From an uncultured Halobacteria archaeon (lineage in GTDB: Bacteria; Pseudomonadota; Gammaproteobacteria; UBA9214), in NCBI GenBank assembly GCA_963847565.1, contig CAWKAE010000013.1, forward strand, positions 15,757 to 79,756: DNA of 64,000 nucleotides. Direction: 5' to 3'. The position numbers and the translations under genes were made by a program. A model generated the notes under the pieces. It had not been told where the DNA came from. It did no database searches and was given only the letters and a program-made list of their open reading frames with translations. Shown here piece by piece: positions 37,004-51,022 of the stretch; position 1 is the first letter of the stretch; every line of letters starts with the position of its first letter.

Positions 37004-37200
37004 ATGAGGACACGCGAATCAGACAGGCGTCAGTACGGCATGGCAAACCGCTTCCCGCTGGAAGATAACACCGGGTGCATCATTCCTTTCAACCGCAGCA
37101 ACAAGCCTGACAGGCGCCTGCGCAACCTTGCATTGCGCGAGATTGATTGCGAGGAATTCAGTCTCTATTCTGTAAACAGATGTATACGGCACCCGATAAA
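37004..37200 (+). CDS. Small protein with two DRR motifs (true 3' end uncertain)
   Basis: Purine-rich RBS; MRTRESDRRQ..FPLEDNTGCIIPFNRSNKPDRRL; the frame reads on into the convergent gene. Confidence 0.5.
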
Positions 37201-37213
37201 CCGGGGCTGCAGC

Positions 37214-37651: not shown

Positions 37652-37654
37652 GGA

Positions 37655-38050
37655 CTACCCCTTGCCGGTGCGCGTACCCAGCAGCTCAATTTGATAACCA
37701 TCCGGATCCTCGACGAACGCAAGAATCGTTGTCCCCGCGTTCATGGGGCCCGCTTCCCGTATAACCTTCCCGCCACGACTGCGTAATTCATCAACTGCCG
37801 TGTAAACATCATCGACCTCGATGGCAATATGACCGAAACCGGAGCCCGTGTCGTAGCGGTCGGTATCCCAGTTATGCGTCAGCTCGATGACCGTGTTGTC
37901 TGCTTCATCACCATAACCGACGAAGGCCAGCGTGAATTTGCCATCGGGATAGTCCTTGCGTCGCAGCAATTGCATCCCGAGCACCTGGGTATAAAAGTCG
38001 ATGGAGGTATCGAGATCACCGACCCGTAGCATGGTATGAAGTAATCGCAT
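37655..38050 (-). CDS. gloA: Lactoylglutathione lyase
   Basis: [34 protein letters not shown]. Confidence 0.96.
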
Positions 38051-38373
38051 TTTCCTGCCCCGCAGTCAGCCCGGCTGACCTGAATGTGCCACCACAGTAC
38101 AACCTGCAGTCAGAATACCACCAGCACAGTAGTGTTTAAACACACAACCCTGTTTAAAACTTTCCGGAATGTATCAAATTTCACGATCAAAGGGACATCC
38201 GTGACTTCAGGCACTCCCAATCAATCTCATGAAACTGATATATTCAGTACTGTGCAAGCCCGGTACGGTTCGTTTTTTATATCCTGCAACAACCAGCCCT
38301 GACTGGACGGGGCATAAGGGCCACCAGCGTCTCCCGCAGGGACCGGGAACTATAACGACAGGCCAGTTACAAT

Positions 38374-39252
38374 ATGGAAGCAGCTCTCAGCAGTGCCGCA
38401 ATCGCCGTGATTTTCATGCTTATCCTGGGGCTGCTGCTCGCCGGCATCCTGGCCGTCGCCAGCCGTCGCCTGTTCGTCTACGAAGACCCGCGCATCGACG
38501 AGGTCGAGGAGATGCTGCCGCACGCCAACTGCGGGGCCTGCGGGACGGCCGGTTGCCGCGCCTTTGCGGAACAGCTGGTCGCAGGCGAACAGCTGCCCGG
38601 AAAGTGCACCGTCAATTCGGCGGACATGAACCAGCAGATAGCCGGCTTCCTCGGCGTTGACCTCGGCCAGGAGGAAAAGCGCGTTGCCCGGCTGGCCTGC
38701 GCCGGCGGCAGCAACGTGGCACACACCCATGCCAGCTATGCTGGACTCGACACCTGCCGCGCCGCCGCCCTGGTCTCCGGTGGCGGCAAGAGCTGTGTCT
38801 GGGGCTGCCTCGGTCTTGGCGACTGCGGCGAGGTTTGCGACTTCGACGCCATTCGAATGGACCGCCAGCGCCTGCCCGTGGTGGATAACGAGCGCTGCAC
38901 GGCCTGTGGTGACTGCGTCGACATCTGCCCGCGCGACCTGTTTTCCCTGCAACCCGTCAGTCACCACCTCTGGGTGGCCTGCAGTAATCCGGAAGCCGGT
39001 GACGAGGTCGAGGCCGACTGCCGTGTTCTTTGCAACGGCTGCGGGCGCTGTGTTGCCGATGCACCGGAAGGCCTGATCACACTGCAGGACAAACTGGCAG
39101 TGATCGACTACAGCCGCAATGCACTGGCATCGAGACTTGCCATTGAGCGCTGCCCGACCGGCGCGATTGTCTGGCTGGATGATGGCAACGCGGTAAACAA
39201 GGGCAAGGCAGCCGCCAGGATTGTACGCAAGGGGGCCCTGCCCGTTGGCTGA
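38374..39252 (+). CDS. rnfB: Rnf subunit B, long polyferredoxin type (cluster 2)
   Basis: TM anchor, LPHANCGACGTAGC, GCLGLGDC, CTACGDCVDICP, CNGCGRC, CPTGAI. Confidence 0.9.
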   Translation: MEAALSSAAIAVIFMLILGLLLAGILAVASRRLFVYEDPRIDEVEEMLPHANCGACGTAGCRAFAEQLVAGEQLPGKCTVNSADMNQQIAGFLGVDLGQEEKRVARLACAGGSNVAHTHASYAGLDTCRAAALVSGGGKSCVWGCLGLGDCGEVCDFDAIRMDRQRLPVVDNERCTACGDCVDICPRDLFSLQPVSHHLWVACSNPEAGDEVEADCRVLCNGCGRCVADAPEGLITLQDKLAVIDYSRNALASRLAIERCPTGAIVWLDDGNAVNKGKAAARIVRKGALPVG

Positions 39253-39329
39253 CAGGACACAAGGGTGTAGGGTGGAATCACAATTGACCCGAATGCTTTT
39301 CACGGATTTCAGCTAGAGACAGATTAACA

Positions 39330-42300
39330 ATGCCCAAGAAAACCGCAGCACAGCAATTCAAGTACCCCGGCACGCGAATGGCGATGGATGGCAATACCGC
39401 CGTCATCATGTGTGAACGCGAATCATCGGACGCCGCGGGCGCCTACCCGATCACACCCTCGACGCAGATGGGTGAGTACTGGGCAGAAGAAGCCGCCAGA
39501 GGGCACCTGAACATCTCGGGCCGACCGCTGATCTTCGTTGAACCGGAAGGCGAACACGCCGCTGCCGCGGTAACGGCCGGCATGTCCATGTCGGGTCTGC
39601 GTGCGAGCAATTTCTCCTCGGCACAGGGCATAGCCTACATGCACGAGTCGCTGTATGCCGCGGTCGGCAAACGCTTGCCCTACGTACTCAACATGGGCTG
39701 CCGCGCCATGACAAAGTCCAGCCTGAATGTGCACTGCGGCCACGATGACTATCACTGTATCGACGACACCGGTTTCACCCAGGTGCTGGGCAAGAACGCA
39801 CAGGAAGCGGCAGACCTGAACCTGATCGGCCGCAGGCTGGCCGAACTCTCTCTGACCCCGGCGGTCGTGGCGCAGGACGGTTTCCTGACCACCCACCTGA
39901 TCGAACCCCTGCAGGTGCCGGAACGGGAACTGATAGCCGAGTTTCTTGGCCGTCCGGATGACATCATTGACTGCCCCACGCCCGCCCAGCGCCTTATATA
40001 CGGTGCCACGCGCCGCCGTATACCGGAACTGTGGAGCGTGGATAACCCGATCATGGCAGGCCCGGTAGAAAACCAGGACTCGTACATGCAGTCGGTGGCC
40101 GCCCAGCGGCCCTATTTCTTTGAGCACGTCGCCGTCATCGCCGAACAGGTCATGGACGAGTACTACCGGCTCACCGGACGGCGCTACCGGCGTGTCAGCG
40201 GTTACCGGATGGATGATGCAGAGTACGTCATCCTCGGCCAGGGCAGTATGATCGTGCAGGCCGAGGCCGTCGCCGATTACCTGCGCGAAACTCGCCAGCT
40301 GAAGGTTGGCGTGGTCAATGTCACCATGTACCGGCCCTTCCCCGGTGACCTGCTGGGTAGCATCCTCAAGGGTCGCCAGGGCGTCGCCGTGCTCGAGCGT
40401 ACCGACCAGCCACAGGCCGAGGACCTGCCGTTGATGCGCGAGGTGCGTGCCGCCCTCTCCAAGTGCCTGGAGAACGGTGCAGTGACAGGCGGGCAGTCGC
40501 CTTATGCCGGTTACGCCAGTTACCGCATCGGCGACATGCCACGACTCTACTCGGGTTGCTACGGTCTTGGTAGCCGCGACCTGCAACCCGAGGCACTGGT
40601 TGCCGCCATCGAGAACATGCTGCCGGACGGTACGCACAAACCCTTCTATTACCTGTCGGTGGACTTCGTGCACGACACCCCGGCCAACCCCAAGCAGGAG
40701 ATCTACCAGCAGAACCTGGTCGATGCCTACCCAAGGCTCCGTGACCTGACCATCCATGGCAGCGAGAACCCGGACCTGACACCAAAGGGATCCACCACCG
40801 TACGCATGCACTCGGTCGGCGGTTGGGGTGCTATCACCACCGGCAAGAATCTCGCCATGACCCTGTTCGACCTGCTCGGCTTCGACATCAAGGCGAACCC
40901 GAAATACGGCTCGGAAAAAAAGGGTCAGCCGACGACCTACTACCTGTCGGCTGCACCGGAACCGATTCGGCTGAACTGCGAGTACCACTACGTCGACGTG
41001 GTCCTGTCACCGGACCCCAACGTGTTCGGCCATTCAAACCCGCTGGCCGGGCTGAAACACGGCGGCGTATTCATCATACAGAGCAGCCTGGCAGACGCCG
41101 ACGCCGTCTGGGCCAGCTTTCCGCGCAGTGCCCGCCAGCAGATCATCGACAATGAGCTGCAGGTATTCTTCCTCGACGGCTTCCGTATCGCGCACGATGA
41201 GGCCTCCAATCCCGACCTGCAGTACCGCATGCAGGGCAACGCCTTCCAGGGCGCCTTCTTCGCGGCCTCACCGCTGATGCAGCAGGCCGGGCTGGATGAG
41301 GCCGGACTGTTCGACGCCATTGATAAACAGCTGCGCCACAAGTTCGGCGGCAAGGGCGAACGTATCGTGCAGGACAACCTGCGGGTGGTGCGACGCGGTT
41401 TCGACGAGATCCAGGAGATCACCGACAAGGTACTGGGCGCCGCCAGCCAGGAACCACAGCGCAAGCCGGCCGGACTGCCGGTCATGCTGAAGCGCATGCC
41501 GGAAGGCAGCGGCGGTATTTCCGATATTCACCGCTTCTGGGAACAGACTGGCAGCTTCTATATGAACGGACAGGGCAACGAGAACCTTGCCGATCCGTTT
41601 ATCGGGCTGGGCGTGATGCCGGCCTGCACCGGCGTGTTCCGCGACATGACCCAGATCCGCTTCAAGTACCCGGAGTACAACCCGGAAAACTGCACGGCAT
41701 GCGGTAACTGTTTCACCATCTGCCCGGACAGCGCTATACCGGGACTGGTGAACAGTATCGACGACGTGTTCAACACGGCGATCTCACGCATTGAGACAGG
41801 CGGACAGCTGACCCTGCACCTGCGCCGTGCGGTACGCGACGTGGAAAAACGCCTGCGCACCCTGATCGAGCCGGTCGGCGAAGTCGCCGAGGTGGACAAG
41901 CTGCTGGACCAGGCCGTGGTGACTACGCTGGCGGAGTCCACCCTTGAAGGTGACAGCCGGGCACGCCTCGAGGAGGAATTCGGCTGGTTCCAGCAGGCCA
42001 TCGGCGACTTCCAGTTCGCCGTCACCAAGCCGTACTACACCAACCGCGAGAAGAAGGCGAAAAACAGCGGCGGCCTGTTCTCCGTGACCATCAATCCGTA
42101 CACCTGCAAGGGCTGCATGGAATGTGTCGAGGTCTGCGACGATGATGCGCTGGTAGCGACGCCGCAGACACCGGAGGCGATCGACCGGCTGCGCCGCGAC
42201 TGGGAGTTCTGGCTCGACCTGCCGACCACCCGCCCGGAATACATTCGCATCGACGATCTCGACGAGCGCATCGGCGCCCTCGAGACCCTGCTGCTCGACA

Positions 42301-44258
42301 AACACAACGTCGCTTCACTGGTCAGCGGCGACGGCGCCTGCCTGGGTTGCGGCGAGAAGACCGTACTGCGACTGTTCACCGCCACTGTCACCGCGTTGAT
42401 GCAGACGCGCGTGACACGCCAGGTCGCGAAGATCGATGACCTGGTCGAGCGCCTCGAACATCATATTCGCCTGCGACTGGCCGAGGGCATGGACCTCGAT
42501 GACACGGACGCCATCAACGCGGTACTGGCTGCACACCGCGACAGCGACCTCAGCCTGTCGGAACTGTCCGGTGAGCTTGATGCAGCACATGCCGCCGAGC
42601 CGGTGGACACCCACTGGTTTGGCTTTGCCACCGGTCTGCTGAAGAAGTTGCGGCATCTGAAATGGCAATACACGCAGGGCGAGACCGGCCAGGGTCGCGC
42701 CGCCATGGGCATCACCAATGCCACCGGCTGCTCGTCGGTGTGGGGTTCCACCTATCCCTTCAACCCCTACCCGTTCCCATGGGCAAACCACCTGTTCCAG
42801 GATGCACCGTCGCTGGCAATGGGTGTCTTCCAGGGCCACATGGAGAGGATGGCGGAAGGTTTCACAGCGGTACGCCTCGCCGAGCTGGAGCTGGCCGGCA
42901 CGTACAATCCGCAGGAACATGACGAGTTCTTTACCTACTTCACCTGGAAACAATTCAGCGAGGAGGAGTGGCTACTTTGCCCGCCGGTGGTCGCCATCGG
43001 CGGCGACGGCGCCATGTACGATATCGGTTTCCAGAACCTTTCCAGGGCACTGATATCGGAAATGCCGATCAAGGTCGTCGTGCTGGACACGCAGGTATAT
43101 TCCAACACCGGCGGCCAGGCCTGCACATCCGGGTTCACCGGCCAGGTCTCCGACATGGCCGGTTTCGGCAAGGTCTGGAAGGGTAAGCCGGAGATCCGCA
43201 AGGAACTGGGGCTGATTGCCATGGCGCACCGCAACGCCTACGTCATGCAGGGCTCTTCAGCCAACGTTACACATCTGCTGGAGGGCTTCATCGAAGGCCT
43301 CAATACCAGGCGCCCGGCAATGTTCAATATCTACACACCCTGCATGCCGGAACACGGCATCGGTGATGAGTCTGCTGAAAACCAGAGCCGGCTGGCACTG
43401 GAATCGCGCGCCTACCCGCTGTTCCGCTTTGATCCGGATGCCGGTACGACCTACGAGGAATGTCTCGACATCGACGGCAATCCCGCTATCGACGATGACT
43501 GGCCCAGTTACACCCTGCGCTACAAGGACGAGGATGGCAACGAGGCCACGCTCGAGCTGCCAATGACCTTCGCCGATTTCGCCGTTACCGAGGGTCGCTT
43601 CCTCAAACACTTCCGCAAGGCACCGCGTGACACCTGGAACGACGACATGGTGCCATTGCATGAATTCATGGAACTGGACGCGGACGACCGCGAGGACCGC
43701 TACCCTTACATCTGGGGCGTGGATGCCAGGAACCAGCTGATGCGGGTCATGGTGACCGCCGAGCTGGTGCGCTCCTGCCAGGACAGGCTGGACTACTGGC
43801 GGTTACTCAGATCGCTCACCGGGACCTGCAAGACACTCGACGAGGACACGATCACAAACCGGGTCCGCACCGAGATGGCACAGCAACTCTCCGCCAGTCT
43901 GCTGGGCCTGGTCTCCGCGGGCGATACCGCCAGCCTGCTGGATACCACTGGCACCCCGGCTGCGGGCGACACCGCCACGGGCGCGGCGACGGCCGCGCCC
44001 GCCGGCGACTACGAACCGGTCTGGGTCGACACCCCCGAATGCGAAGCCTGCGACGAGTGCACCAGGATCAACCCGAAGATATTCGCCTACAACGCGGAGA
44101 AAAAGGCGGTCGTCACCAACCCGCGCGGCGGACCATACCGCGACATCGTCCGCGCGGCCGAGAAGTGTACCGCCGAGTGCATCCATCCCGGCACGCCGTT
44201 CGATATGAGCGAGAAGGATATCGACAAGCTGGTCAAGCGGGCAGAAAAGTTCCAGTGA
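39330..44258 (+). CDS. Large single-chain 2-oxoacid (probably pyruvate):ferredoxin oxidoreductase with C-terminal ferredoxin
   Basis: YPITPST, GGWGAITTGK, two CxxCxxCxxxC motifs, GACLGCGE, ATGCSSVWG, TPP motif GGDG...DTQVYSNTGGQ, terminal CEACDEC...C. Confidence 0.92.
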   Translation: MPKKTAAQQFKYPGTRMAMDGNTAVIMCERESSDAAGAYPITPSTQMGEYWAEEAARGHLNISGRPLIFVEPEGEHAAAAVTAGMSMSGLRASNFSSAQGIAYMHESLYAAVGKRLPYVLNMGCRAMTKSSLNVHCGHDDYHCIDDTGFTQVLGKNAQEAADLNLIGRRLAELSLTPAVVAQDGFLTTHLIEPLQVPERELIAEFLGRPDDIIDCPTPAQRLIYGATRRRIPELWSVDNPIMAGPVENQDSYMQSVAAQRPYFFEHVAVIAEQVMDEYYRLTGRRYRRVSGYRMDDAEYVILGQGSMIVQAEAVADYLRETRQLKVGVVNVTMYRPFPGDLLGSILKGRQGVAVLERTDQPQAEDLPLMREVRAALSKCLENGAVTGGQSPYAGYASYRIGDMPRLYSGCYGLGSRDLQPEALVAAIENMLPDGTHKPFYYLSVDFVHDTPANPKQEIYQQNLVDAYPRLRDLTIHGSENPDLTPKGSTTVRMHSVGGWGAITTGKNLAMTLFDLLGFDIKANPKYGSEKKGQPTTYYLSAAPEPIRLNCEYHYVDVVLSPDPNVFGHSNPLAGLKHGGVFIIQSSLADADAVWASFPRSARQQIIDNELQVFFLDGFRIAHDEASNPDLQYRMQGNAFQGAFFAASPLMQQAGLDEAGLFDAIDKQLRHKFGGKGERIVQDNLRVVRRGFDEIQEITDKVLGAASQEPQRKPAGLPVMLKRMPEGSGGISDIHRFWEQTGSFYMNGQGNENLADPFIGLGVMPACTGVFRDMTQIRFKYPEYNPENCTACGNCFTICPDSAIPGLVNSIDDVFNTAISRIETGGQLTLHLRRAVRDVEKRLRTLIEPVGEVAEVDKLLDQAVVTTLAESTLEGDSRARLEEEFGWFQQAIGDFQFAVTKPYYTNREKKAKNSGGLFSVTINPYTCKGCMECVEVCDDDALVATPQTPEAIDRLRRDWEFWLDLPTTRPEYIRIDDLDERIGALETLLLDKHNVASLVSGDGACLGCGEKTVLRLFTATVTALMQTRVTRQVAKIDDLVERLEHHIRLRLAEGMDLDDTDAINAVLAAHRDSDLSLSELSGELDAAHAAEPVDTHWFGFATGLLKKLRHLKWQYTQGETGQGRAAMGITNATGCSSVWGSTYPFNPYPFPWANHLFQDAPSLAMGVFQGHMERMAEGFTAVRLAELELAGTYNPQEHDEFFTYFTWKQFSEEEWLLCPPVVAIGGDGAMYDIGFQNLSRALISEMPIKVVVLDTQVYSNTGGQACTSGFTGQVSDMAGFGKVWKGKPEIRKELGLIAMAHRNAYVMQGSSANVTHLLEGFIEGLNTRRPAMFNIYTPCMPEHGIGDESAENQSRLALESRAYPLFRFDPDAGTTYEECLDIDGNPAIDDDWPSYTLRYKDEDGNEATLELPMTFADFAVTEGRFLKHFRKAPRDTWNDDMVPLHEFMELDADDREDRYPYIWGVDARNQLMRVMVTAELVRSCQDRLDYWRLLRSLTGTCKTLDEDTITNRVRTEMAQQLSASLLGLVSAGDTASLLDTTGTPAAGDTATGAATAAPAGDYEPVWVDTPECEACDECTRINPKIFAYNAEKKAVVTNPRGGPYRDIVRAAEKCTAECIHPGTPFDMSEKDIDKLVKRAEKFQ

Positions 44259-44318
44259 GACCGTCCTGCGACAGCATGAGCCACGGTCACAGGGCACGGC
44301 CTGTCTACGGGTGAATCC

Positions 44319-45659
44319 ATGATTCTGCGTAAGCTGTTTCGGCGTAACACCTTCGAGCATGGCGTGCATCCCGCGGAGCACAAGGAACTGACCTGCGGTC
44401 TGCCCATCCGCCGTCTGCCATTTGCCCGACAACTGATCCTGCCCCTGTCACAGCATGCCGGCAATCCATCCATAGCACTGGTAAGGCCCGGCCAGGAGGT
44501 GGTGCGCGGCGAGCCCATTGCCCGCGCAGATGGTTTCATGTCGGTCCCCATGCACGCACCGGCCACCGGCAAGGTGGAAGCCATCCAGCTGATGCCCAGC
44601 GCGCGCGGGCCAAAAACCCTGTCCATCCTCCTGCACGTCTACGCGGGTTCCAGCCAGGACGTGCTGTACGGTGCATCCCGCGATATCGACCACATGACAC
44701 CGGACGAGATCATCCAGGCGGTACAGGACGCCGGCATGGTCGGCCTTGGCGGCGCGGCCTTCCCGACCCACGTCAAGATGAAGCCACCGCCGGAACACAG
44801 CGTCGACACCCTGGTGGTCAACGGCTGCGAGTGCGAACCCTACCTGACCTGCGACCACCGGCTGATGCTTGAACAGACCGGCAACCTGCTGGCCGGCATT
44901 CGCATCGTGATGCGCGCGCTCGGGGTGGAACGCTGCATGATCGGGATCGAGGACAACAAGCTGGATGCCGTGGCCGCGATTGCTGCACAGCTACCGGATA
45001 ACGGGCCGGTCAGTGTGCATGCCGTGGAGACCAAGTATCCGCAGGGTGCCGAGAAGATGCTGATCGAGAGCCTGCTGGGACGGCGCGTGCCAACAGGCGC
45101 GTTTCCGTCCGCGGTCGGCGTCAGTGTTTTCAACGTCAGCACCCTGACCCAGATCGGCGAACTGCTGCCCCTGGGTCGCGGTGTTATCGAGCGTGTCGTC
45201 ACGGTCAGCGGCAGCGGTGTGCAGCATCCCGGCAACTACCTGGTGCCGGTCGGCACACCGGTGCGTTTCCTGCTGCAGCACGCCGGTACTACACCGCGCA
45301 CCCAGGAACTGATCCTCGGCGGCCCCATGATGGGCATGTCGGTTGCCTCGCTTGATGTGCCGGTTACCAAGGCCGTCTCGGGGATGGTGCTGATGGAGGA
45401 AACCGACGCCGATTTAGGCAATCGTCCCGTGCAGCCATGCATCCGCTGCGCCTGGTGTGTCGAAGCCTGCCCCATGCACCTCAACCCGTCGACACTGGGA
45501 TTGCTGGCGAGCAAACGTGAATACGCCCGCATGGCAGACGAGTTTCACCTCAACGACTGCTTCGAGTGTGGCTGCTGCAGCTACGTCTGCCCTGCCAATA
45601 TTCCGCTGGTGCAGTATTTCCGCATTGCCAAGGCCATCAACCGGGAGCAGGCGGCATGA
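44319..45659 (+). CDS. rnfC: Rnf subunit C (cluster 2)
   Basis: GVHP, GLGGAAFPT, NGCECEPYLT, YPQGAEK, GGPMMG, two 4Fe-4S motifs. Confidence 0.95.
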   Translation: MILRKLFRRNTFEHGVHPAEHKELTCGLPIRRLPFARQLILPLSQHAGNPSIALVRPGQEVVRGEPIARADGFMSVPMHAPATGKVEAIQLMPSARGPKTLSILLHVYAGSSQDVLYGASRDIDHMTPDEIIQAVQDAGMVGLGGAAFPTHVKMKPPPEHSVDTLVVNGCECEPYLTCDHRLMLEQTGNLLAGIRIVMRALGVERCMIGIEDNKLDAVAAIAAQLPDNGPVSVHAVETKYPQGAEKMLIESLLGRRVPTGAFPSAVGVSVFNVSTLTQIGELLPLGRGVIERVVTVSGSGVQHPGNYLVPVGTPVRFLLQHAGTTPRTQELILGGPMMGMSVASLDVPVTKAVSGMVLMEETDADLGNRPVQPCIRCAWCVEACPMHLNPSTLGLLASKREYARMADEFHLNDCFECGCCSYVCPANIPLVQYFRIAKAINREQAA

Positions 45660-46711
45660 CCGGAAGCCGGCTGAAGATCGAGCTGCGCACCTCGCCGCAC
45701 CTTAAACAGGCGGTGACGGTCGAACAGATCATGCGCAACGTGGTGTATGCCCTGCTGCCGGTTTGCGTGTTTGCCGTGTATGCCTTCGGTATCAGCGTGC
45801 TGGCACTGCTGATGGTAACCACCCTCACCTGCATCCTGTGTGAATCACTGTTTTGCCGACTCAGTGGACGGCCGGACACGGTGAATGACTGGAGCATCAC
45901 CATCACCGGCCTGCTGCTGGCGCTGACGCTGCCCCCCGGCTTCCCGCTGTGGATGGCCGTTGTCGCTGCAGTGGTTGCAGTCGGCCTCGGCAAGGCCCTG
46001 TTCGGTGGTCTCGGCAGCAACGTGATGAACCCGGCCCTGGTCGGTCGCGCCTTCGTGCAGGCCGCCTTCCCGGTCGCGATCACCACCTGGACACCGGCCT
46101 TCATGGAGGGACGTTTTACACAGTTCATACCCTCCACCCTGACCCTGCCCTTCATGCAGCCAGCGGACATCAGCGACTGGCTGTCGCACTCGCAACTGGA
46201 CGGTTTTACCGGGGCAACACCACTGGCACTGCAGAAGTTCGAGCAGATCACTACCCCGGCCCTTGACCTGCTGACCGGGATGACAGCCGGCTCGGCCGGC
46301 GAGACCTCCGCGGTGCTCATACTCATCGGCGGACTGTATCTCGCGGCACGCCGCATGCTGGACTGGCGCATCCCGACCGGAGTGCTGCTGGGCGCCGTGC
46401 TGACCAGCCTGCCCTTCTGGCTAATGGACGCGCAGCAATACCCGTCGCCGCTGTTCGTACTATTGTCCGGCGGCCTCATGCTGGGTGCCGTGTTCATGGC
46501 CAGCGACATGGTGGCCTCGCCGGTGACGCCGCTGGGTGTATGGATCTACAGCCTGTTTATCGGTGCGCTGACCGTGGTCATTCGGCTGTTCGGCGGACTG
46601 ACCGAGGGGGTCATGTACGCCATCCTGCTGGGCAACGCGCTCTCGCCGCTGATCGCCACCATCTCCCAGCCGCGGGTCTTCGGCGGCGCCCGTCGCGGGG
46701 TAAAGTCATGA
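45656..46711 (+). CDS. rnfD: Rnf subunit D (cluster 2)
   Basis: SPH, GGLGSNVMNPALVGR, flavinylation motif TGATPL, GETS. Confidence 0.95.
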   Translation: MTGSRLKIELRTSPHLKQAVTVEQIMRNVVYALLPVCVFAVYAFGISVLALLMVTTLTCILCESLFCRLSGRPDTVNDWSITITGLLLALTLPPGFPLWMAVVAAVVAVGLGKALFGGLGSNVMNPALVGRAFVQAAFPVAITTWTPAFMEGRFTQFIPSTLTLPFMQPADISDWLSHSQLDGFTGATPLALQKFEQITTPALDLLTGMTAGSAGETSAVLILIGGLYLAARRMLDWRIPTGVLLGAVLTSLPFWLMDAQQYPSPLFVLLSGGLMLGAVFMASDMVASPVTPLGVWIYSLFIGALTVVIRLFGGLTEGVMYAILLGNALSPLIATISQPRVFGGARRGVKS

Positions 46712-47406
46712 ACCAGCCCGCAACACCACAGGCCATTCCGGCCACACTCACCGTCCCGATGCTGCGCACCCTGGGGCTGGTGGCCGCGCTATCAGGTTTC
46801 CTGGTTGTGCTGGCCCATCACCTCAGCCTGCCGCTGATCGAGGAAAACAAGCGCATCGCCATCGAGCGTGCGCTGTTCAAGGTGATACCGGGCGCGGTCA
46901 CACGCCGCGACTACCTGCTCACTGCGACCGGCATGGAGCCGCTCGGTGAAACAGTACCGGACCAGGGTATGCATCTGTATGCCGGCTATGACGCACAAGA
47001 CCGGCTTGCCGGTGTTGCGCTGGAGACGGCCGCGCAGGGCTACCAGGACGTGATCCGCATCCTCTACAGTTACGATCCCGCCTGCGAATGCATTCGCGGT
47101 ATACAGGTCCTGAAGATGGCGGAGACGCCGGGGATCGGCGACAAGATCGCCAAAGACCCCGACTTTCTGCAGAATTTCGCGGCACTGGATGCCCGGGTGG
47201 ATGCCACTGGCAACGGCTTGGCCCATGCTATCGTCAGCGTCAAGAGCGGCAGCAAGACCGAACCCTGGCAGATCGATGCCATCTCCGGTGCAACCATCTC
47301 GTCCAAGGCCGTCGCGCGCATGCTCAACGACAGCGCACAACAGGCCGCGCCCGTGATCATTCGCCACCTTCATGTATTACAGAAACCCGCAGGGACCGCG
47401 CCATGA
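46708..47406 (+). CDS. rnfG: Rnf subunit G (cluster 2)
   Basis: GYQD, ETPGIGD, DAISGATISS. Confidence 0.92.
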   Translation: MNQPATPQAIPATLTVPMLRTLGLVAALSGFLVVLAHHLSLPLIEENKRIAIERALFKVIPGAVTRRDYLLTATGMEPLGETVPDQGMHLYAGYDAQDRLAGVALETAAQGYQDVIRILYSYDPACECIRGIQVLKMAETPGIGDKIAKDPDFLQNFAALDARVDATGNGLAHAIVSVKSGSKTEPWQIDAISGATISSKAVARMLNDSAQQAAPVIIRHLHVLQKPAGTAP

Positions 47407-48062
47407 GCCTGCCCGCAAAACACGAGACGGTAACGGCAGACACCTTCCTGCGCGGGCTGTGGCAGGAGAACCCGGTGTTCGTCATGCTGCTGGGCATGTG
47501 CCCGGTGCTCGCGGTGACCAACTCCGCCATCAATGCCCTGGCGATGGGGCTGGCGACGACCTTTGTGCTGCTGTGCTCCAGCAGCCTGGTGTCGTTGCTG
47601 CGCAAACAGATTCCGAAACAGGTCCGCATCGCCACCTACATCATTATCATCGCTACCTTCGTCACCATGGTGGACTATGCCATCCAGGCCATCAGCCTGG
47701 ACCTGTACAACGCACTTGGCGCATTTATCCAGCTCATCGTGGTCAACTGCATGATTCTCGGACGGGCCGAGGCCTATGCCTCGAAACAGCGACTGGGCGC
47801 CACCCTGGTCAATGGCCTGGGCATGGGTGTCGGGTTTACCATCGCACTGCTCTGCCTCGGCGCGGTGCGTGAAATCCTCGGCGCCGGCAGCCTGTTCGGT
47901 GTGCAACTGTTTTCCGACAACTTCCAGCCCTGGGTGGTCATGATCCTGCCACCAGGCGGATTCTTCGTACTCGGCGCCTGGCTGCTGGTGTTTGCGTGGT
48001 ACCGGCAGCGGCGCGAGCGGCGCCTGACGGAACATGCGGAGGTGACAGCCGATGTCCGGTGA
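47403..48062 (+). CDS. rnfE: Rnf subunit E (cluster 2)
   Basis: ENPVFVMLLGMCPVLAV, LIVVNCMILGRAE, LPPGGF. Confidence 0.95.
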   Translation: MSLPAKHETVTADTFLRGLWQENPVFVMLLGMCPVLAVTNSAINALAMGLATTFVLLCSSSLVSLLRKQIPKQVRIATYIIIIATFVTMVDYAIQAISLDLYNALGAFIQLIVVNCMILGRAEAYASKQRLGATLVNGLGMGVGFTIALLCLGAVREILGAGSLFGVQLFSDNFQPWVVMILPPGGFFVLGAWLLVFAWYRQRRERRLTEHAEVTADVR

Positions 48063-48642
48063 ATCACTGGGTTTCATCTTTCTGAATGCCGCGGTAATCA
48101 ACAACTTCGTGCTCGCGCTGTTCCTCGGCATCTGTCCGTTCCTCGGCGTTTCGGCCAAGCGAGCGACTGCATGGAACATGGGGCTTGCCGTGATCTTTGT
48201 CATGCTGGTCAGCTCGATCAGCGCCTACGGTATTAACTGGCTGCTGACCCGCTTCGAGATCGAGTTCCTGCGGCTGATCTGCTTTATCGCGGTCATCGCC
48301 TCCGCCGTGCAACTGGTGGAAATGACTATGAAGAAATTCAGCCCGGCGCTGTTCCGTGCGCTGGGTATCTTCCTGCCGCTGATTACCACCAACTGTGCCA
48401 TCCTCGGTGTCGCCCTGTTTCAAACCTTCCGCGAGTACAGCTTCCTGCAATGTCTCGCCTTCAGCCTGGGTGCCGGCGTCGGCTTTACACTCGCGCTGAT
48501 GCTGATGGCCGGACTGCGCGAACGAGTGGAACTGTCGCGCGTACCGGACGTCAGCCAGGGCGCAGCGATGACGCTGATGCTCGCCGGACTGCTGTCGCTG
48601 GCCTTCATGGGCTTTGCCGGGCTGGGAGGTCAGCATGCTTGA
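48052..48642 (+). CDS. rnfA: Rnf subunit A (cluster 2)
   Basis: [37 protein letters not shown]. Confidence 0.95.
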   Translation: MSGESLGFIFLNAAVINNFVLALFLGICPFLGVSAKRATAWNMGLAVIFVMLVSSISAYGINWLLTRFEIEFLRLICFIAVIASAVQLVEMTMKKFSPALFRALGIFLPLITTNCAILGVALFQTFREYSFLQCLAFSLGAGVGFTLALMLMAGLRERVELSRVPDVSQGAAMTLMLAGLLSLAFMGFAGLGGQHA

Positions 48643-48823
48643 TATGCTGATCGCCGCGGGCGTGATACTGCTGGTGCTGCTCGGCTGGATTGCTGTACAA
48701 CAGGGCGCACGCGAATTTGCCGAGCGGCACCCGGAATTCGGCCCGGCGCGCGAGGATGGCGAGGGCTGCGGCGCGGGCTGCAACTGCTGCGGCGGCCAGT
48801 GCACACGGCGCAACGAACAATGA
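48635..48823 (+). CDS. 62-aa single-TM Cys-rich microprotein
   Basis: GGAGG RBS, overlaps the rnfA stop; TM helix then GCGAGCNCCGGQC. Confidence 0.8.
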   Translation: MLDMLIAAGVILLVLLGWIAVQQGAREFAERHPEFGPAREDGEGCGAGCNCCGGQCTRRNEQ

Positions 48824-48851
48824 CACTCACTACCGCATGGAGAATAGCAAC

Positions 48852-49718
48852 ATGACCCGGCTAAGTGACTACGACACCAGTCGCACAAGCGAGGCGCTGG
48901 TAATAGAAAGCCACCGCATCACGTCAAAAGACGCCCCGGAGGTGCGCAGCATCCTGCTGAGCGTTTCTCACCCTGACTTCAACTATCGCGAGGGTCAGAA
49001 CATCGGCATTACCGTGCCCGGTGCGCAGGCATTTGGCAAGGAGCAGCACTTCCGCCTCTACACCATCGCCAATACACCGCGGCAGAGCGAGGGTGGCGAA
49101 GTCGAGATCGAGCTGTGTGTGCGGCGCTGCTTCTACATAGACGAGGTCAGTGGCGAGGAATACCCCGGGTTGGCCTCCAGCTTCCTCTGTGATGCCAGGC
49201 CCGGTGACCGTATTAACTTCACCGGTCCCTACGGGGATGCCTTCCGCATTCCGGAAGACCCCGCGACCAACCTGCTGATGATCGGCACCGGCACCGGCAT
49301 CGCGCCGTTTCGGGCCTTCATCCAGCACATCTACGAAAAGCAACCGCACTGGCAGGGCCAGGTACGACTGTTCTACGGTGCACGCACCGGTACCGAGACG
49401 CTGTATCGCAATGACCTCAAGGATGACCTGTCCAACTACTACGACCGCGATTCCTTTGAGGCCTTCGAGGGTCTCAGCAAGCGGCCATGGATGGACCGGG
49501 AAGATACCGGACTCAGCGAGGTGCTGGAAAACAATGCCGCTGCCATCTGGGACCTGATGCAGGACCCCAGGACCCATGTTTATATCGCCGGCCTGCCGAA
49601 GACCGCAGAGGATTTTTACCGCGCCATGACCGGCGTGGCCGGTTCCACGGCACGCTGGCGCTGGACACGCGAGGAAATGATGGAACAGGGACGCTGGTCG
49701 GAGTTGCTGTACAGCTAG
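48852..49718 (+). CDS. Ferredoxin--NAD(P)+ reductase-like flavoprotein (plant-type FNR/BoxA-like)
   Basis: YREGQNIG, RLYTIA, CVRR, GLASSFLCD, TGPYG, GTGTGIAPFR, LFYGAR. Confidence 0.88.
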   Translation: MTRLSDYDTSRTSEALVIESHRITSKDAPEVRSILLSVSHPDFNYREGQNIGITVPGAQAFGKEQHFRLYTIANTPRQSEGGEVEIELCVRRCFYIDEVSGEEYPGLASSFLCDARPGDRINFTGPYGDAFRIPEDPATNLLMIGTGTGIAPFRAFIQHIYEKQPHWQGQVRLFYGARTGTETLYRNDLKDDLSNYYDRDSFEAFEGLSKRPWMDREDTGLSEVLENNAAAIWDLMQDPRTHVYIAGLPKTAEDFYRAMTGVAGSTARWRWTREEMMEQGRWSELLYS

Positions 49719-49805
49719 GACCGGCAGGCAAGCCCGCTGGCAGTTGTTGCGCGACTCCTGCAGCCGTCAGCCCGGCAGCAGGAATGCTCCCCGGGGTGAC
49801 GACTG

Positions 49806-51022
49806 CTAGCCCTTGCGCTTCAGACGTGCCTCGATGCGCATGCGCAGCGCATTCAGGCGAATGAAGCCCTCCGCATCCTTCTGGTCATAGGCGCCCTCAT
49901 CCTCTTCAAAGGTCGCAATGCGTTCGTCAAACAGACTGTCGGAATCCGACTGTCTGCCAACCAGTGTCACGTTGCCCTTGTAGAGTTTCAGCCGCACCTT
50001 GCCGTTGACATGTTCCTGGGATGCATCAATCAACTGCTGCAGCAGGCGTCTTTCCGGGCTCCACCAGTAACCGTTATAGACCATCGAGGCATAGCGCGGC
50101 ATCAGTTCATCCTTCATATGCGCCACCTCTCGATCCAGCGTCAATGACTCCATCGCGCGGTGCGCCTTCAGCAGGATGGTGCCGGCCGGTGTTTCATAGC
50201 AGCCGCGGGATTTCATACCAACGTAGCGGTTCTCGACGATATCCGAACGACCGATGCCGTTACTGCCGCCAAGACTGTTCAGCGTCTTCATGATATCGGC
50301 CGGTGCAGTCGGTTACCGTCGAGTGCAACCGGGTCGCCGCGTTCGAATGTGATCTCGACATAGGTGGGCTTGTCCGGCGCCGCTTCGGGCGAGACCGTCC
50401 ACAGCCACATGTCCTCCTCCGGTTCCGCCCACGGGTCTTCAAGGATGCCGCCTTCGTAGGAAATGTGCAGCGAGTTGGCGTCCATGGAATACGGTGACTT
50501 CTTGCCCTGCTTCATTTCCACCGGGATGCCACGCTTCTCCGCATAGGCCATCAGCGTCTCGCGCGAGGTCAGGTCCCATTCACGCCACGGCGCGATGATT
50601 TTTATGTCCGGGTTAAGCGCGTAGGCACCCAGTTCAAAACGCACCTGGTCATTGCCCTTGCCGGTCGCACCGTGCGCAATGGCATCCGCGCCGGTTTCCC
50701 GGGCAATCTCGACCAGTCGTTTCGCGATCAACGGACGCGCAATCGACGTGCCCAGCAGGTACTCGCCCTCGTAAATGGTATTGGCGCGGAACATCGGAAA
50801 CACGTAGTCACGCGCGAACTCCTCGGTGAGGTCCTCGATGAAGATTTCCTTCACGCCCATCGCCTGCGCCTTCTCGCGCGCCGGCTCGATCTCCTCGCCC
50901 TGCCCGACATCGGCGGTAAACGTGACCACTTCGCAGTCGTACGTTTCTTCCAGCCATTTAAGGATGACCGACGTATCGAGACCGCCGGAATAGGCCAGTA
51001 CCACTTTCTTTACTTCTGACAT
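49806..51022 (-). CDS. argG: Argininosuccinate synthase (apparent frameshift near 50300)
   Basis: [37 protein letters not shown]. Confidence 0.97.

What the first reader, a model, noticed from the sequence alone, without database searches (positions are those of the whole stretch)
38374..49718. Self-contained Rnf-PFOR-FNR operon: a 2-oxoacid oxidoreductase embedded inside an Rnf complex
Seen: rnfB - 1642-aa oxidoreductase - rnfCDGEA - Cys-rich microprotein - FNR-like gene, all co-oriented, with overlaps from rnfC to the microprotein and no free ferredoxin gene. Established: PFOR exchanges electrons with low-potential ferredoxin, and Rnf reversibly couples ferredoxin:NAD+ transfer to ion translocation. 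Inference: a hard-wired membrane module. It could conserve energy from anoxic pyruvate oxidation, or run in reverse to drive reductive carboxylation of acetyl-CoA, with the FNR as an uncoupled bypass. A full PDH sits under 2 kb away, suggesting an oxic/anoxic or catabolic/anabolic split. I know of no characterisation of this arrangement. Best candidate for an undescribed system in this window.
Basis: partly seen in the sequence, partly recalled or inferred. Interest (0 to 1): 0.85.

Follow-up and report, generated by a model that had tools for sequence, protein, structure and literature searches.

The report
Pyruvate oxidoreductase wired into Rnf pump
A pyruvate-splitting enzyme that carries its own tethered ferredoxin is encoded in the middle of the genes for a membrane ion pump (Rnf), an arrangement kept in many bacterial groups that probably links pyruvate/CO2 chemistry directly to the membrane potential but has never been tested at the bench.

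Summary
On the + strand lie rnfB (38374-39252), a 1642-aa PFOR-family gene (39330-44258), rnfC-D-G-E-A (44319-48642, overlapping), a 62-aa Cys-rich membrane ORF (48635-48823) and a plant-type FNR (48852-49718). The order is not peculiar to this assembly. Among the 80 best of 594 related loci, rnfB lies upstream in 70 of 70 testable loci and rnfC downstream in 65 of 66, across Gammaproteobacteria, Rhodocyclales, Acidobacteriota, Verrucomicrobiota and Hydrogenedentota.

New here:
- The enzyme keeps its TPP motif and twelve cluster cysteines.
- It ends in a disordered linker plus a single-cluster ferredoxin domain, which explains the missing free ferredoxin gene.
- A second architecture was found (KorAB, an ~830-aa tail protein, rnfB, a catalytically dead PFOR-like protein, then rnfCDGEA). 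It shows that the PFOR body, tethered ferredoxin and polyferredoxin RnfB travel together.
- FNR (29 of 56 loci) and PEP synthase (12 of 56) alternate at the operon's end.

I read it as a dedicated, reversible pyruvate:NAD+ module coupled to ion translocation, leaning towards pyruvate synthesis. Binding, direction and co-transcription are not shown. A 2014 genome paper noted the arrangement. I found no biochemical study. Verdict: new variant of a known kind.

The parts
38374..39252 (+). rnfB2: membrane-anchored polyferredoxin subunit B of Rnf, 292 aa
   Evidence: Pfam FeS and Fer4. TIGR01944 85.4 bits against a cut-off of 68.7. Best solved relatives are A. woodii RnfB 9eri_B (7e-51) and C. tetanomorphum 7zc6_B (9e-50); A. 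vinelandii 8ahx_B matches only residues 12-107. All 20 Cys are invariant in 70 sequences.
39330..44258 (+). PFOR-family 2-oxoacid:ferredoxin oxidoreductase, 1642 aa, single polypeptide
   Evidence: Pfam POR_N, PFOR_II, POR, Fer4, TPP_enzyme_C, Fer4_13. TIGR02176 409 bits, below the cut-off of 911. Best PDB match is Moorella PFOR 6cin, 2e-90. It is the only POR_N match in the own genome, which is 83% complete.
41691..42137 (+). Domain V: two CxxCxxCxxxC motifs (Cys 788-798 and 926-936) separated by a helical insertion of about 100 residues
   Evidence: The Cys are invariant in 81 sequences. Helices at residues about 810-891 have pLDDT above 85. Relative to 6cin there is a gap between residues 804 and 908.
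42999..43007 (+). GDG of the TPP-binding motif (GGDGAMYDIG ... DTQVYSNTGGQ)
   Evidence: Alignment. TPP_enzyme_C hit at residues 1219-1274.
43890..44009 (+). Low-complexity Ala/Gly/Thr-rich linker, residues 1521-1560
   Evidence: Least conserved block of the protein, mean identity 0.27. pLDDT is below 50 for model residues 160-187, which are protein residues 1531-1558.
44010..44255 (+). C-terminal single-[4Fe-4S] ferredoxin domain (Cys 1571, 1574, 1577, 1613)
   Evidence: Fer4_13. phmmer hit to D. africanus Fd I 1dax, 2.6e-5. Foldseek 1fxr: TM 0.85 on the target, rmsd 0.9 A over 58 columns, 36% identity. VIA-align Z 8.7, 8.5 and 7.8 to R. palustris Fd, H. thermophilus Fd1 and D. africanus Fd I. 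The four Cys are invariant in 70 sequences.
44319..45659 (+). rnfC2: NADH/FMN-binding subunit, 446 aa
   Evidence: TIGR01945 500.7 bits against a cut-off of 246. Complex1_51K, RnfC_N, SLBB, Fer4. PDB 7zc6_C 7e-106.
45656..46711 (+). rnfD2, 351 aa
   Evidence: TIGR01946 298.8 bits against a cut-off of 207. ATG at 45656 overlaps the rnfC stop by 4 nt.
46708..47406 (+). rnfG2, 232 aa, FMN_bind domain
   Evidence: PF04205 8.7e-15. TIGR01947 84.3 bits, below the cut-off of 102. The start is inferred from the translation.
47403..48062 (+). rnfE2, 219 aa
   Evidence: TIGR01948 237.5 bits against a cut-off of 213.
48052..48642 (+). rnfA2, 196 aa
   Evidence: TIGR01943 230.7 bits against a cut-off of 229.3.
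48635..48823 (+). 62-aa membrane ORF: N-terminal hydrophobic helix, RHPEFGP motif, Cys/Gly-rich tail
   Evidence: A like ORF follows rnfA in most loci, including Acidobacteriota, and in a type II locus (L088). It has no Pfam or NCBIfam family. Atlas neighbours are unnamed clusters.
48852..49718 (+). Plant/cyanobacterial-type ferredoxin:NADP+ reductase, 288 aa
   Evidence: FAD_binding_6 and NAD_binding_1. PDB matches: cyanobacterial FNR 8hfq 4e-42, spinach 1fnb 2e-37. It follows the operon in 29 of 56 loci.

Best explanation
The stretch is one operon for a dedicated 2-oxoacid oxidoreductase-Rnf unit. The 1642-aa enzyme is a catalytically intact PFOR relative, most likely acting on pyruvate. It carries three [4Fe-4S] clusters, and a fourth sits on a small ferredoxin domain hung from its C-terminus by a disordered linker of about 40 residues.

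I propose that this tethered ferredoxin swings between the enzyme's outermost cluster and the cytoplasmic polyferredoxin RnfB2. RnfB2 has 20 invariant Cys, enough for five clusters. From RnfB2, electrons pass through RnfD/G/A/E to the NAD(H) site on RnfC2, coupled to Na+ or H+ translocation.

The net reaction would be pyruvate + CoA + NAD+ <-> acetyl-CoA + CO2 + NADH, with ions pumped out in the forward direction or let in for the reverse.

The hardware is reversible. I lean about 55:45 to the reductive use in these respiring or phototrophic hosts. In that mode the membrane potential and NADH drive pyruvate synthesis from acetyl-CoA and CO2, feeding PEP synthase. The FNR gives the same tethered ferredoxin a link to NADP(H). 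The small Cys-rich membrane protein is a subunit or assembly factor of this Rnf lineage.

Shown: gene content, conservation of order, catalytic and cluster motifs, the fold of the tail and disorder of the linker, and the type of RnfB.
Inferred: the electron path, the physical contact, the ion coupling and the direction.
For: **Order kept across phyla.** rnfB is upstream in 70 of 70 testable loci, rnfC downstream in 65 of 66, and rnfCDEA complete in 59 of 61.

**Enzyme looks active.** The TPP motif, the YPITPS and Arg125 equivalents, and 12 invariant Cys for three clusters are present.

**Built-in ferredoxin.** The tail folds like the small ferredoxins D. africanus Fd I and H. thermophilus Fd1. 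It sits behind a poorly conserved linker with pLDDT below 50. No free ferredoxin gene lies in the operon.

**RnfB2 is the long clostridial type**, with 20 invariant Cys.

**Co-occurrence in 200 sampled genomes of the class.**
- All 11 genomes that hold the tail module also hold an RnfB2-like gene of 284-454 bits.
- Type I: 8 genomes. The RnfB2-like gene is on the same contig, about 5 kb upstream, in 6 of these 8. In the other 2 the genes lie on different contigs of fragmented assemblies.
- Type II: 5 genomes. The RnfB2-like gene directly follows the tail-bearing gene in 5 of 5.
- Two genomes hold both types.

**Type II loci, 5 of 5.** They read KorA-KorB, an ~830-aa tail protein, rnfB, then a PFOR-like protein. 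rnfC follows in 3 of the 4 loci with room for it. The PFOR-like protein has lost the TPP motif and all four proximal-cluster Cys, yet keeps both domain V cluster motifs and its place after rnfB. A dead enzyme kept in that position argues for a structural or electron-wire role beside Rnf.

**Pyruvate context.** PEP synthase and PpsR follow the operon in 12 of 56 loci. Phosphoglycerate mutase is inserted in L006.

**Other observations.**
- The own genome has RuBisCO. No isocitrate lyase was found in it at 83% completeness.
- Contigs of two metatranscriptome libraries match parts of the enzyme gene and the small ORF-FNR junction with 0-7 differences. The tool warns that DNA can be present in such libraries.

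**Established knowledge, recalled.** The pyruvate/acetyl-CoA+CO2 couple lies near -500 mV and NAD+/NADH at -320 mV. Rnf is reversible. Ferredoxin-dependent pyruvate synthesis was first shown in Chromatium extracts in the 1960s, and Allochromatium and Thiocapsa are among the carriers.
Against: - No direct evidence of contact or of a single transcript was obtained.
- The enzyme gene is set off by gaps of 77 and 60 nt, whereas the rnf genes overlap.
- Canonical PFORs are soluble and need no membrane partner.
- The operon's FNR shows that the tail has at least one partner other than RnfB.
- In one type II genome (G009), rnfCDGEA is not next to the rnfB/PFOR-like pair. aroC follows instead, and the matching rnfC lies on another contig.
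- The enzyme scores 409 bits against the PFOR equivalog cut-off of 911, so its substrate is not settled.
- For direction: a CBB autotroph needs pyruvate to be converted to acetyl-CoA, plastid-type FNRs usually run ferredoxin to NADPH, and the 2014 paper favoured pyruvate as donor. The oxidative reading is therefore nearly as good.
- Only the 80 loci most like the query (63-89% identity) of 594 were examined.
Confidence: 0.42

Rival explanations
1. Same wired hardware, but the physiological role is oxidative. Pyruvate from CBB-derived C3 compounds or from stored glycogen is oxidised to acetyl-CoA. The low-potential electrons pass through the tail to Rnf2, which reduces NAD+ and pumps ions. This would be an energy-conserving replacement for pyruvate dehydrogenase under low oxygen. 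FNR would divert part of the electrons to NADPH for biosynthesis.
For: - The own genome has RuBisCO, so acetyl-CoA must be made from C3 compounds.
- This enzyme is the only POR_N protein found in the own genome.
- The FNR is of the plastid/cyanobacterial type, which typically runs from ferredoxin to NADP+ (recalled).
- The Solemya symbiont paper proposed pyruvate as electron donor for this Rnf (passages read).
- Two of the neighbouring PDH genes are frameshifted as assembled.
Against: - PEP synthase and PpsR follow the operon in 12 of 56 loci, and PEP synthase is a gluconeogenic enzyme.
- The type II relatives sit beside KorAB. In these autotrophs KorAB is discussed as a carboxylase (PMC6315080, passages read).
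- By my recollection most carriers are respiring organisms with PDH, which would make the oxidative role redundant.
- Frameshifts also occur in argG, pepA and ppsA of this assembly, so the PDH breaks are probably assembly errors.
Confidence: 0.28
2. Co-expression without a complex. The enzyme is an ordinary soluble PFOR whose fused ferredoxin serves several partners by diffusion, such as FNR and other ferredoxin-dependent enzymes. Rnf2 merely balances the ferredoxin and NAD pools. The gene order reflects co-regulation and joint horizontal transfer.
For: - Gaps of 77 and 60 nt flank the enzyme gene, while the rnf genes overlap.
- FNR in the operon shows that the tail has a second partner.
- G009 keeps the rnfB/PFOR-like pair away from rnfCDGEA.
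- Canonical PFORs are soluble (recalled).
Against: - A ferredoxin tied to a large enzyme (about 180 kDa per chain by my estimate from 1642 aa) is a poor diffusible carrier.
- rnfB is always placed on the enzyme's side of the operon (70 of 70 loci).
- A catalytically dead PFOR-like protein is kept after rnfB in 5 of 5 type II loci. That is hard to explain by co-regulation of an enzyme activity.
Confidence: 0.18
3. The enzyme acts on a 2-oxoacid other than pyruvate, such as 2-oxoglutarate, 2-oxobutyrate or a branched-chain or aromatic 2-oxoacid. The module would then serve a different pathway.
For: - It scores 409 bits against the cut-off of 911 for the PFOR equivalog.
- The match to solved PFORs is distant, with best E-value 2e-90 over a gapped alignment.
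- It has large insertions near domains V and VI.
- The type II relatives are paired with KorAB-type enzymes.
Against: - In the alignment to Moorella PFOR, the YPITPS threonine and the arginine equivalent to the pyruvate-carboxylate ligand are kept, and the pocket residues are small and hydrophobic. The roles of these residues are recalled from D. africanus PFOR.
- PEP synthase and PpsR are direct neighbours in 12 of 56 loci.
- PFOR is the best hit in NCBIfam and in the PDB.
Confidence: 0.1

Closest known systems
Homodimeric single-polypeptide PFOR (Moorella thermoacetica 6CIN, Desulfovibrio africanus 1B0P; NifJ type)
   Same: Domains I, II, III, V and VI are in the same order. The TPP GDG...N motif is present, as are two ferredoxin-type clusters in domain V and a proximal cluster.
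   Different: It is about 470 residues longer. It has a helical insertion between the two cluster motifs of domain V, a second long-helix insertion at about residues 1008-1115, and a C-terminal extension with a beta domain, a disordered linker and a ferredoxin domain. It scores below the equivalog cut-off. It is always encoded between rnfB and rnfC.
Rnf complexes of Acetobacterium woodii (9ERI) and Clostridium tetanomorphum (7ZC6)
   Same: Six subunits are present. RnfB is the long polyferredoxin type (7e-51 and 9e-50). RnfC matches at 1e-100 to 7e-106.
   Different: Gene order is B-[enzyme]-CDGEA. The hosts, to judge from the taxon names in the record titles, are mostly respiring or phototrophic Proteobacteria, Acidobacteriota and Verrucomicrobiota rather than fermenters or acetogens. 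A conserved small Cys-rich membrane ORF follows rnfA. The same window also holds a standard rnfABCDGE-nth cluster whose subunits are only 24-50% identical to these.
rnf2 operon of the Solemya velum symbiont (Dmytrenko et al. 2014, PMC4287430)
   Same: The paper states that pyruvate:ferredoxin oxidoreductase genes lie between rnfB2 and rnfC2 of an rnfBCDGEA operon, beside a second rnfABCDGE operon (passages read).
   Different: It is a genome note only. In the passages I read there is no mention of the fused ferredoxin, the small ORF, the FNR/PEP synthase alternation, the spread across phyla or the dead-enzyme variant, and no experiment.
Type II clusters found here: KorA-KorB, ~830-aa tail protein, rnfB, PFOR-like pseudoenzyme, rnfCDGEA (loci L083-L087)
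   Same: They share the same RnfB type (52-58% identity), the same C-terminal beta-domain, linker and ferredoxin module, a PFOR-like body after rnfB, and a small Cys-rich ORF after rnfA in L088.
   Different: The tail sits on a separate ~830-aa protein. The PFOR-like body lacks the TPP motif and the proximal cluster. Catalysis is presumably done by the adjacent two-subunit KorAB. A NuoF-like gene and a FAD protein lie upstream in 3 of 5 loci.
Pyruvate:NADP+ oxidoreductase of Euglena and Cryptosporidium (recalled, not searched)
   Same: It joins PFOR chemistry to an FNR-type NADP+ reductase. Here an FNR gene closes the operon, and the enzyme has its own ferredoxin to feed it.
   Different: That enzyme is one polypeptide with a cytochrome-P450-reductase-like module. 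Here the FNR is a separate plastid-type protein without an FMN domain, and it is present in only 29 of 56 loci.
Azotobacter vinelandii Rnf1 (8AHX), the nif-linked reverse-running Rnf
   Same: It is an Rnf thought to use the membrane potential to reduce a low-potential carrier for a dedicated client enzyme (review PMC12174285, passages read).
   Different: It has the short RnfB type, which matches only residues 12-107 of RnfB2. It uses free ferredoxin or flavodoxin and has an RnfH subunit. No nitrogenase NifH was found in the own genome.
NqrM and FeoB-associated Cys-rich small membrane proteins
   Same: The small ORF has the same outline: one N-terminal helix and a short Cys-rich tail, encoded at the end of an Rnf/Nqr-type operon. 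The weak Atlas lead to PF12669 scored 0.85.
   Different: Neither Pfam model matches the ORF, nor its place in the genome at E up to 10.

Membership tests
PFOR (single-polypeptide pyruvate:ferredoxin oxidoreductase, TIGR02176) | Domain set I (POR_N), II (PFOR_II), III (POR), V (2x[4Fe-4S]) and VI (TPP-binding) in one chain | tested here: met
   All five are found in order by Pfam. The alignment to 6cin covers residues 17-804, 908-1016, 1126-1183 and 1212-1372.
PFOR (single-polypeptide pyruvate:ferredoxin oxidoreductase, TIGR02176) | Score at or above the curated equivalog cut-off of 911 bits | tested here: not met
   409.1 bits. It is therefore a member of the superfamily, not of the curated equivalog.
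PFOR (single-polypeptide pyruvate:ferredoxin oxidoreductase, TIGR02176) | TPP/Mg-binding GDG...N motif and Cys ligands for three [4Fe-4S] clusters | tested here: met
   GGDGAMYDIG...DTQVYSNTGGQ is present. Cys 788/791/794/798, 926/929/932/936 and 1004/1007/1134/1338 are invariant in 81 sequences. The assignment of the last four to the proximal cluster is inferred by analogy with D. africanus PFOR (recalled).
PFOR (single-polypeptide pyruvate:ferredoxin oxidoreductase, TIGR02176) | Pyruvate specificity | tested here: inconclusive
   The Thr of YPITPS and Arg125 align with their counterparts in Moorella PFOR. PEP synthase is a neighbour in 12 of 56 loci.
Rnf complex (RnfABCDGE) | All six subunits reach the NCBIfam subfamily cut-offs | tested here: inconclusive
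   B scores 85.4 against 68.7, C 500.7 against 246, D 298.8 against 207, E 237.5 against 213.4 and A 230.7 against 229.3, so all five are met. G scores 84.3 against 102 and is below the cut-off, although the FMN_bind domain is present at 8.7e-15.
Rnf complex (RnfABCDGE) | Ferredoxin:NAD+ oxidoreductase activity coupled to ion translocation | not testable with these tools
   This needs membrane vesicles.
Plant-type ferredoxin:NADP+ reductase | Two-domain FAD_binding_6 and NAD_binding_1 fold with close similarity to plastid and cyanobacterial FNR | tested here: met
   Pfam. PDB 8hfq 4e-42, 1sm4 5e-38 and 1fnb 2e-37. The NCBIfam PetH equivalog scores 167.5 against a cut-off of 600, which is not met, so it is not a cyanobacterial PetH orthologue.
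NqrM (PF04400) / FeoB-associated Cys-rich protein (PF12669) | Match to the family model | tested here: not met
   There is no hit for the 62-aa ORF at E up to 1. Genome-wide scans at E up to 10 hit other places, not 48635-48823.
Pyruvate:NADP+ oxidoreductase (PFOR-CPR fusion) | PFOR and an NADPH-binding flavoprotein in one polypeptide | tested here: not met
   The enzyme ends in a ferredoxin domain, not a flavoprotein. The FNR is a separate gene.

The most novel reading that the evidence does not exclude
The PFOR-like protein is a true peripheral subunit of a distinct class of Rnf supercomplex. This would be a ferredoxin-free, membrane-bound 2-oxoacid:NAD+ oxidoreductase and ion pump. A tethered ferredoxin arm commutes between the enzyme and RnfB.

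In type I the body is the catalyst, acting as a pyruvate synthase or oxidase. In type II it has become a pseudoenzyme scaffold that docks KorAB. Such machines would let sulfur-, iron- and light-driven bacteria that cannot reduce ferredoxin directly pay for reductive carboxylations with membrane potential.

This would answer two questions: how pyruvate synthase, long known from Chromatium extracts, is energised, and how 2-oxoglutarate synthase is energised in symbionts that run both the CBB and reverse TCA cycles.
Probability: 0.3. Interest if true: 0.85.

Novelty: new variant of a known kind. Interest (0 to 1): 0.62.

Why it matters
PFOR and Rnf are both well understood on their own. How respiring or purple phototrophic bacteria obtain ferredoxin reduced enough for pyruvate or 2-oxoglutarate synthesis is an old open point.

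A conserved operon that places a PFOR with its own ferredoxin arm next to the ferredoxin-binding subunit of Rnf makes that question directly testable. Cultured carriers exist: Allochromatium, Thiocapsa and Sedimenticola hydrogenitrophicus.

If the unit runs forward, it is a pyruvate dehydrogenase that conserves extra energy. If it runs backward, it is a membrane-potential-driven CO2-fixing step in organisms counted as Calvin-cycle autotrophs or heterotrophs. That bears on carbon budgets of chemosynthetic symbioses and sediments.

The dead-enzyme variant would also be a clear case of a metabolic enzyme turned into an electron-transfer scaffold.

Tried and rejected
**Complex prediction.** RnfB2 residues 36-292 (alignment A1) were folded with the ferredoxin tail (alignment A2). 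The verdict was 'no answer', score 0.00 against a mark of 0.32, and the controls were not run. I do not count this for or against binding.

**Fold searches.**
- Foldseek on the model of residues 770-1215 gave only weak PFOR rows (best E 4e-3, TM about 0.25). The two helical insertions therefore have no assigned fold.
- The beta domain at residues 1372-1496 was barely tested, because the ferredoxin domain filled both hit lists.

**Regulatory and RNA scans.**
- Rfam at gathering thresholds over 37000-51000 found nothing.
- The promoter scan over 37400-50400 found 0 sites, against 3.4 expected from shuffles. It found 13 terminator-like sites against 8.6 +/- 2.9. None lies in the rnfB-POR or POR-rnfC gaps. 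This is not informative either way.

**RNA libraries.**
- All runs were Logan contigs, which cannot show a transcript, a strand or a level.
- No near-identical RNA-library contig bridges rnfB-POR or POR-rnfC. The one bridging contig (X3, 39068-39484) has 39 differences and belongs to a relative.
- Bins without cover mean nothing.
- Shares of 0.05-0.09 of the words were too small to name a habitat.

**Small ORF.** It has no Pfam or NCBIfam family. Tests against NqrM and FeoB_associated were negative. The Atlas lead to PF12669 scored 0.85 and is only a lead.

**Ideas rejected.**
- A nitrogenase-supply role for this Rnf: no true NifH was found. The best hit was 55 bits in a 355-aa frame.
- PDH as a meaningful partner: it is not a conserved neighbour, and its genes are frameshifted as assembled.

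**Literature.**
- Seven searches found one explicit note of the arrangement (PMC4287430) and no biochemical study.
- I read passages only, using find mode, of PMC4287430, PMC6593406, PMC11636981, PMC12174285, PMC13664910, PMC4853749 and PMC6315080.
- Supplements are closed. Text S1 and Fig. S4 of PMC6315080 may describe the korAB neighbourhood that I call type II.
- Subscription journals are not covered.

Full report
**What is in the window.** ORF listing, Pfam and NCBIfam confirm nine co-oriented genes.

| Gene | Coordinates | Size |
|---|---|---|
| rnfB | 38374-39252 | 292 aa |
| PFOR-family gene | 39330-44258 | 1642 aa |
| rnfC | 44319-45659 | 446 aa |
| rnfD | 45656-46711 | 351 aa |
| rnfG | 46708-47406 | 232 aa |
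| rnfE | 47403-48062 | 219 aa |
| rnfA | 48052-48642 | 196 aa |
| small Cys-rich membrane ORF | 48635-48823 | 62 aa |
| FNR | 48852-49718 | 288 aa |

With starts chosen from the translations, rnfC to the small ORF overlap by 4, 4, 4, 11 and 8 nt. The enzyme gene is flanked by gaps of 77 and 60 nt. The FNR follows after 28 nt, with a GGAG 9 nt before its ATG.

A second, standard rnfABCDGE-nth cluster lies at 17921-23758. Its subunits are only 24-50% identical to those of the operon studied here.

The own assembly has 2.24 Mb in 25 contigs and is 83% complete. In it I found:
- this as the only POR_N protein;
- RuBisCO;
- no true NifH;
- no isocitrate lyase and no PhaC.

The last three absences are subject to the incompleteness of the assembly.

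The best 80 (63-89% identity) were kept. tblastn with the window's proteins gave:
- rnfB within 1.5 kb upstream in 70 of 70 loci with enough DNA;
- rnfC within 1 kb downstream in 65 of 66;
- rnfC, D, E and A all present in 59 of 61;
- FNR after rnfA in 31 of 60.

The one exception for rnfC, L006, has a CHASE histidine kinase and a phosphoglycerate mutase inserted between the enzyme gene and rnfC.

The record titles name Sedimenticola, Thiodiazotropha, Allochromatium, Thiocapsa, Thiothrix, Rhodocyclaceae, Sulfuritalea, Gallionella, Bryobacteraceae and other Acidobacteriota, Opitutaceae, Puniceicoccaceae, Kiritimatiellae and Hydrogenedentota. Only the 80 closest of 594 were examined.

**The enzyme.** It is a PFOR relative. 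The best solved match is Moorella PFOR 6cin (2e-90). It scores 409 bits against the curated PFOR cut-off of 911.

In 81 aligned sequences the invariant cysteines are:
- 788/791/794/798 and 926/929/932/936, the two domain V clusters;
- 1004/1007/1134/1338, which I assign to the proximal cluster by analogy;
- 1571/1574/1577/1613 in the C-terminal domain.

The TPP motif GGDGAMYDIG...DTQVYSNTGGQ is intact.

Relative to solved PFORs it has three additions:
- a helical insertion between the two domain V motifs;
- a second, long-helix insertion at about residues 1008-1115;
- roughly 270 extra C-terminal residues.

An AlphaFold model of residues 1372-1642 (mean pLDDT 82) shows a beta domain, a long helix, a stretch with pLDDT below 50 (residues 1531-1558) and a confident small domain. 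That small domain matches single-cluster ferredoxins:
- D. africanus Fd I: TM 0.85 on the target, rmsd 0.9 A, 36% identity;
- R. palustris Fd, H. thermophilus Fd1 and D. africanus Fd I: Z 8.7, 8.5 and 7.8.

The linker is also the least conserved block of the protein (0.27). The 'missing' ferredoxin is therefore tethered to the enzyme.

**The Rnf part.** RnfB2 is of the long polyferredoxin type found in A. woodii and C. tetanomorphum (7e-51 and 9e-50). The short A. vinelandii type matches only its N-terminus. All 20 of its cysteines are invariant in 70 sequences.

RnfC, D, E and A pass their NCBIfam cut-offs. RnfG is below its cut-off but has the FMN_bind domain.

A small ORF with one helix, an RHPEFGP-like motif and a Cys-rich tail follows rnfA in most loci, Acidobacteriota included. 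It belongs to no Pfam or NCBIfam family and is not matched by the NqrM or FeoB-associated models.

**Conserved neighbours.** Clustering of flanking ORFs, followed by targeted tblastn and NCBIfam, gave these counts.

Of 56 loci with at least 3 kb after rnfA:
- FNR follows in 29;
- PEP synthase with its regulator PpsR follows in 12;
- both never occur together;
- neither follows in 15.

Of 65 loci with enough upstream DNA:
- a divergent LysR-family gene precedes rnfB in 19;
- ApbE, the flavin transferase, precedes rnfB in 8.

PDH is not a conserved neighbour.

**A second architecture.** The C-terminal 271 residues were searched against 1.84 billion representative proteins. This gave 1574 hits at E up to 0.001 and 508 at E up to 1e-30. 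They include full-length enzymes of 1527-1685 aa and many proteins of about 700-890 aa in which Pfam sees only the Fer4_13 tail.

In 200 genomes sampled evenly from the class:
- 8 hold the full enzyme;
- 5 hold the ~830-aa form;
- two of these genomes hold both;
- all 11 also hold an RnfB2-like gene of 284-454 bits.

The five loci with the ~830-aa form (L083-L087) all read KorA, KorB, ~830-aa tail protein, rnfB, a PFOR-like gene of 1506-1599 aa. rnfCDGEA follows in 3 of the 4 loci with room for it. In G009 aroC follows instead, and a matching rnfC lies on another contig.

In 5 of 5 the PFOR-like gene has lost YPITPS, the TPP motif (a 10-residue deletion) and all four proximal-cluster cysteines. 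It keeps both domain V cluster motifs. A small Cys-rich membrane ORF again follows rnfA in L088.

This is the strongest comparative argument that the PFOR body, the tethered ferredoxin and this type of RnfB form one functional unit. The unit persists even when the body no longer catalyses anything.

**How it most likely works.**

Shown:
- the parts, their motifs and their conservation;
- the ferredoxin fold of the tail and the disorder of the linker;
- the co-occurrence with RnfB2.

Inferred: the tail shuttles single electrons between the enzyme's outer cluster and RnfB2. Rnf2 then links them to NAD(H) at RnfC2, with ion translocation.

From recalled textbook values, about -500 mV for pyruvate/acetyl-CoA+CO2 and -320 mV for NAD, the forward reaction can pump ions and the reverse needs them.

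I lean slightly to the reverse direction, pyruvate synthase, for these reasons:
- the PEP synthase neighbours;
- the KorAB-linked type II;
- the hosts, which are respiring or purple phototrophs that cannot reduce ferredoxin directly;
- the recalled classical finding of ferredoxin-dependent pyruvate synthesis in Chromatium extracts.

The oxidative reading is nearly as good. It was proposed for the Solemya symbiont, and it fits a Calvin-cycle autotroph's need for acetyl-CoA and the plastid-type FNR.

**Expression.** Contigs from two metatranscriptome libraries match the window closely:
- inside the enzyme gene: 284 nt with 2 differences, and 521 nt with 7;
- across the small ORF-FNR junction, 48794-49217: 1 difference;
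- inside the FNR, 49221-49470: 0 differences.

The tool warns that DNA can be present in such libraries and that contigs cannot show one transcript. Co-transcription therefore stays open.

**Literature.** The Solemya velum symbiont genome paper states that PFOR genes lie between rnfB2 and rnfC2, and suggests pyruvate as a donor (PMC4287430, passages).

Papers on Kentron, Endoriftia, Gallionellaceae, Thiomargarita and tubeworm symbionts mention PFOR and Rnf separately (passages). A 2025 Rnf/Nqr review does not mention the arrangement in the passages searched.

Seven searches found no biochemical or structural study. Supplements and subscription journals were not visible.

The thing is made of known kinds, PFOR and Rnf, in an uncharacterised, widely conserved variant with a tethered ferredoxin. 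It has a pseudoenzyme sister form that I did not find described.

Binding was not shown. The one complex job gave no answer and is not counted.

The tools search of earlier findings and the listing of cluster members were closed or switched off.

Noticed in passing
L083-L087 (G044, G009, G148, G084, G181); L088, L089: A second operon type occurs in 5 of 200 sampled genomes of the class. It reads (FAD protein, NuoF-like), KorA, KorB, ~830-aa protein with the same beta-domain, linker and ferredoxin tail, rnfB-like, PFOR-like gene lacking the TPP motif and the proximal-cluster Cys, then rnfCDGEA and a small Cys-rich ORF. The PFOR-like protein looks like a pseudoenzyme kept as an electron wire or scaffold.
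   Followed up: partly
P0044, P0048, P0059, P0078 and many other hits: There is a large family of proteins of about 700-890 aa in which Pfam recognises only the C-terminal Fer4_13 domain. The middle part resembles a degenerate PFOR domain VI without GDG. None is present in the own genome.
   Followed up: partly
window 17921-23758: A standard gammaproteobacterial rnfABCDGE cluster followed by endonuclease III (nth). Its subunits are 24-50% identical to those of the operon studied.
   Followed up: partly
window 49806-51022 (-), 53130-53330 (-), about 54880-54960 (-), about 56770-56870 (+); own genome C9:43338-45711: Apparent frameshifts split argG, PDH E2, PDH E1-beta and probably pepA. ppsA on another contig is also split. 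Four breaks fall within about 8 kb beside an 11.3-kb operon with none. These are either assembly indels or real decay, and I could not tell which.
   Followed up: partly
window 52700-52830 (-): No stop codon separates the end of the PDH E2 catalytic domain from the start of the E3 (lipoamide dehydrogenase) reading frame. This is either a natural E2-E3 fusion or another assembly artefact.
   Followed up: no
L006 14927-20324: A CHASE-domain histidine kinase and a cofactor-independent phosphoglycerate mutase are inserted between the enzyme gene and rnfC. This is the only locus of 66 in which rnfC is not within 1 kb.
   Followed up: partly
window 38247-38279 (+): A terminator-like hairpin with a T run lies in the 323-nt region upstream of rnfB. 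It could end an upstream transcript or act as a leader element. There was no Rfam match.
   Followed up: no
loci L008, L019, L024, L028, L030, L032, L034, L035, L047, L052, L054, L080: PEP synthase (ppsA) and its regulator ppsR directly follow the rnf-PFOR operon, in exactly the position where FNR sits in other genomes. The two never occur together in the 56 loci examined.
   Followed up: yes
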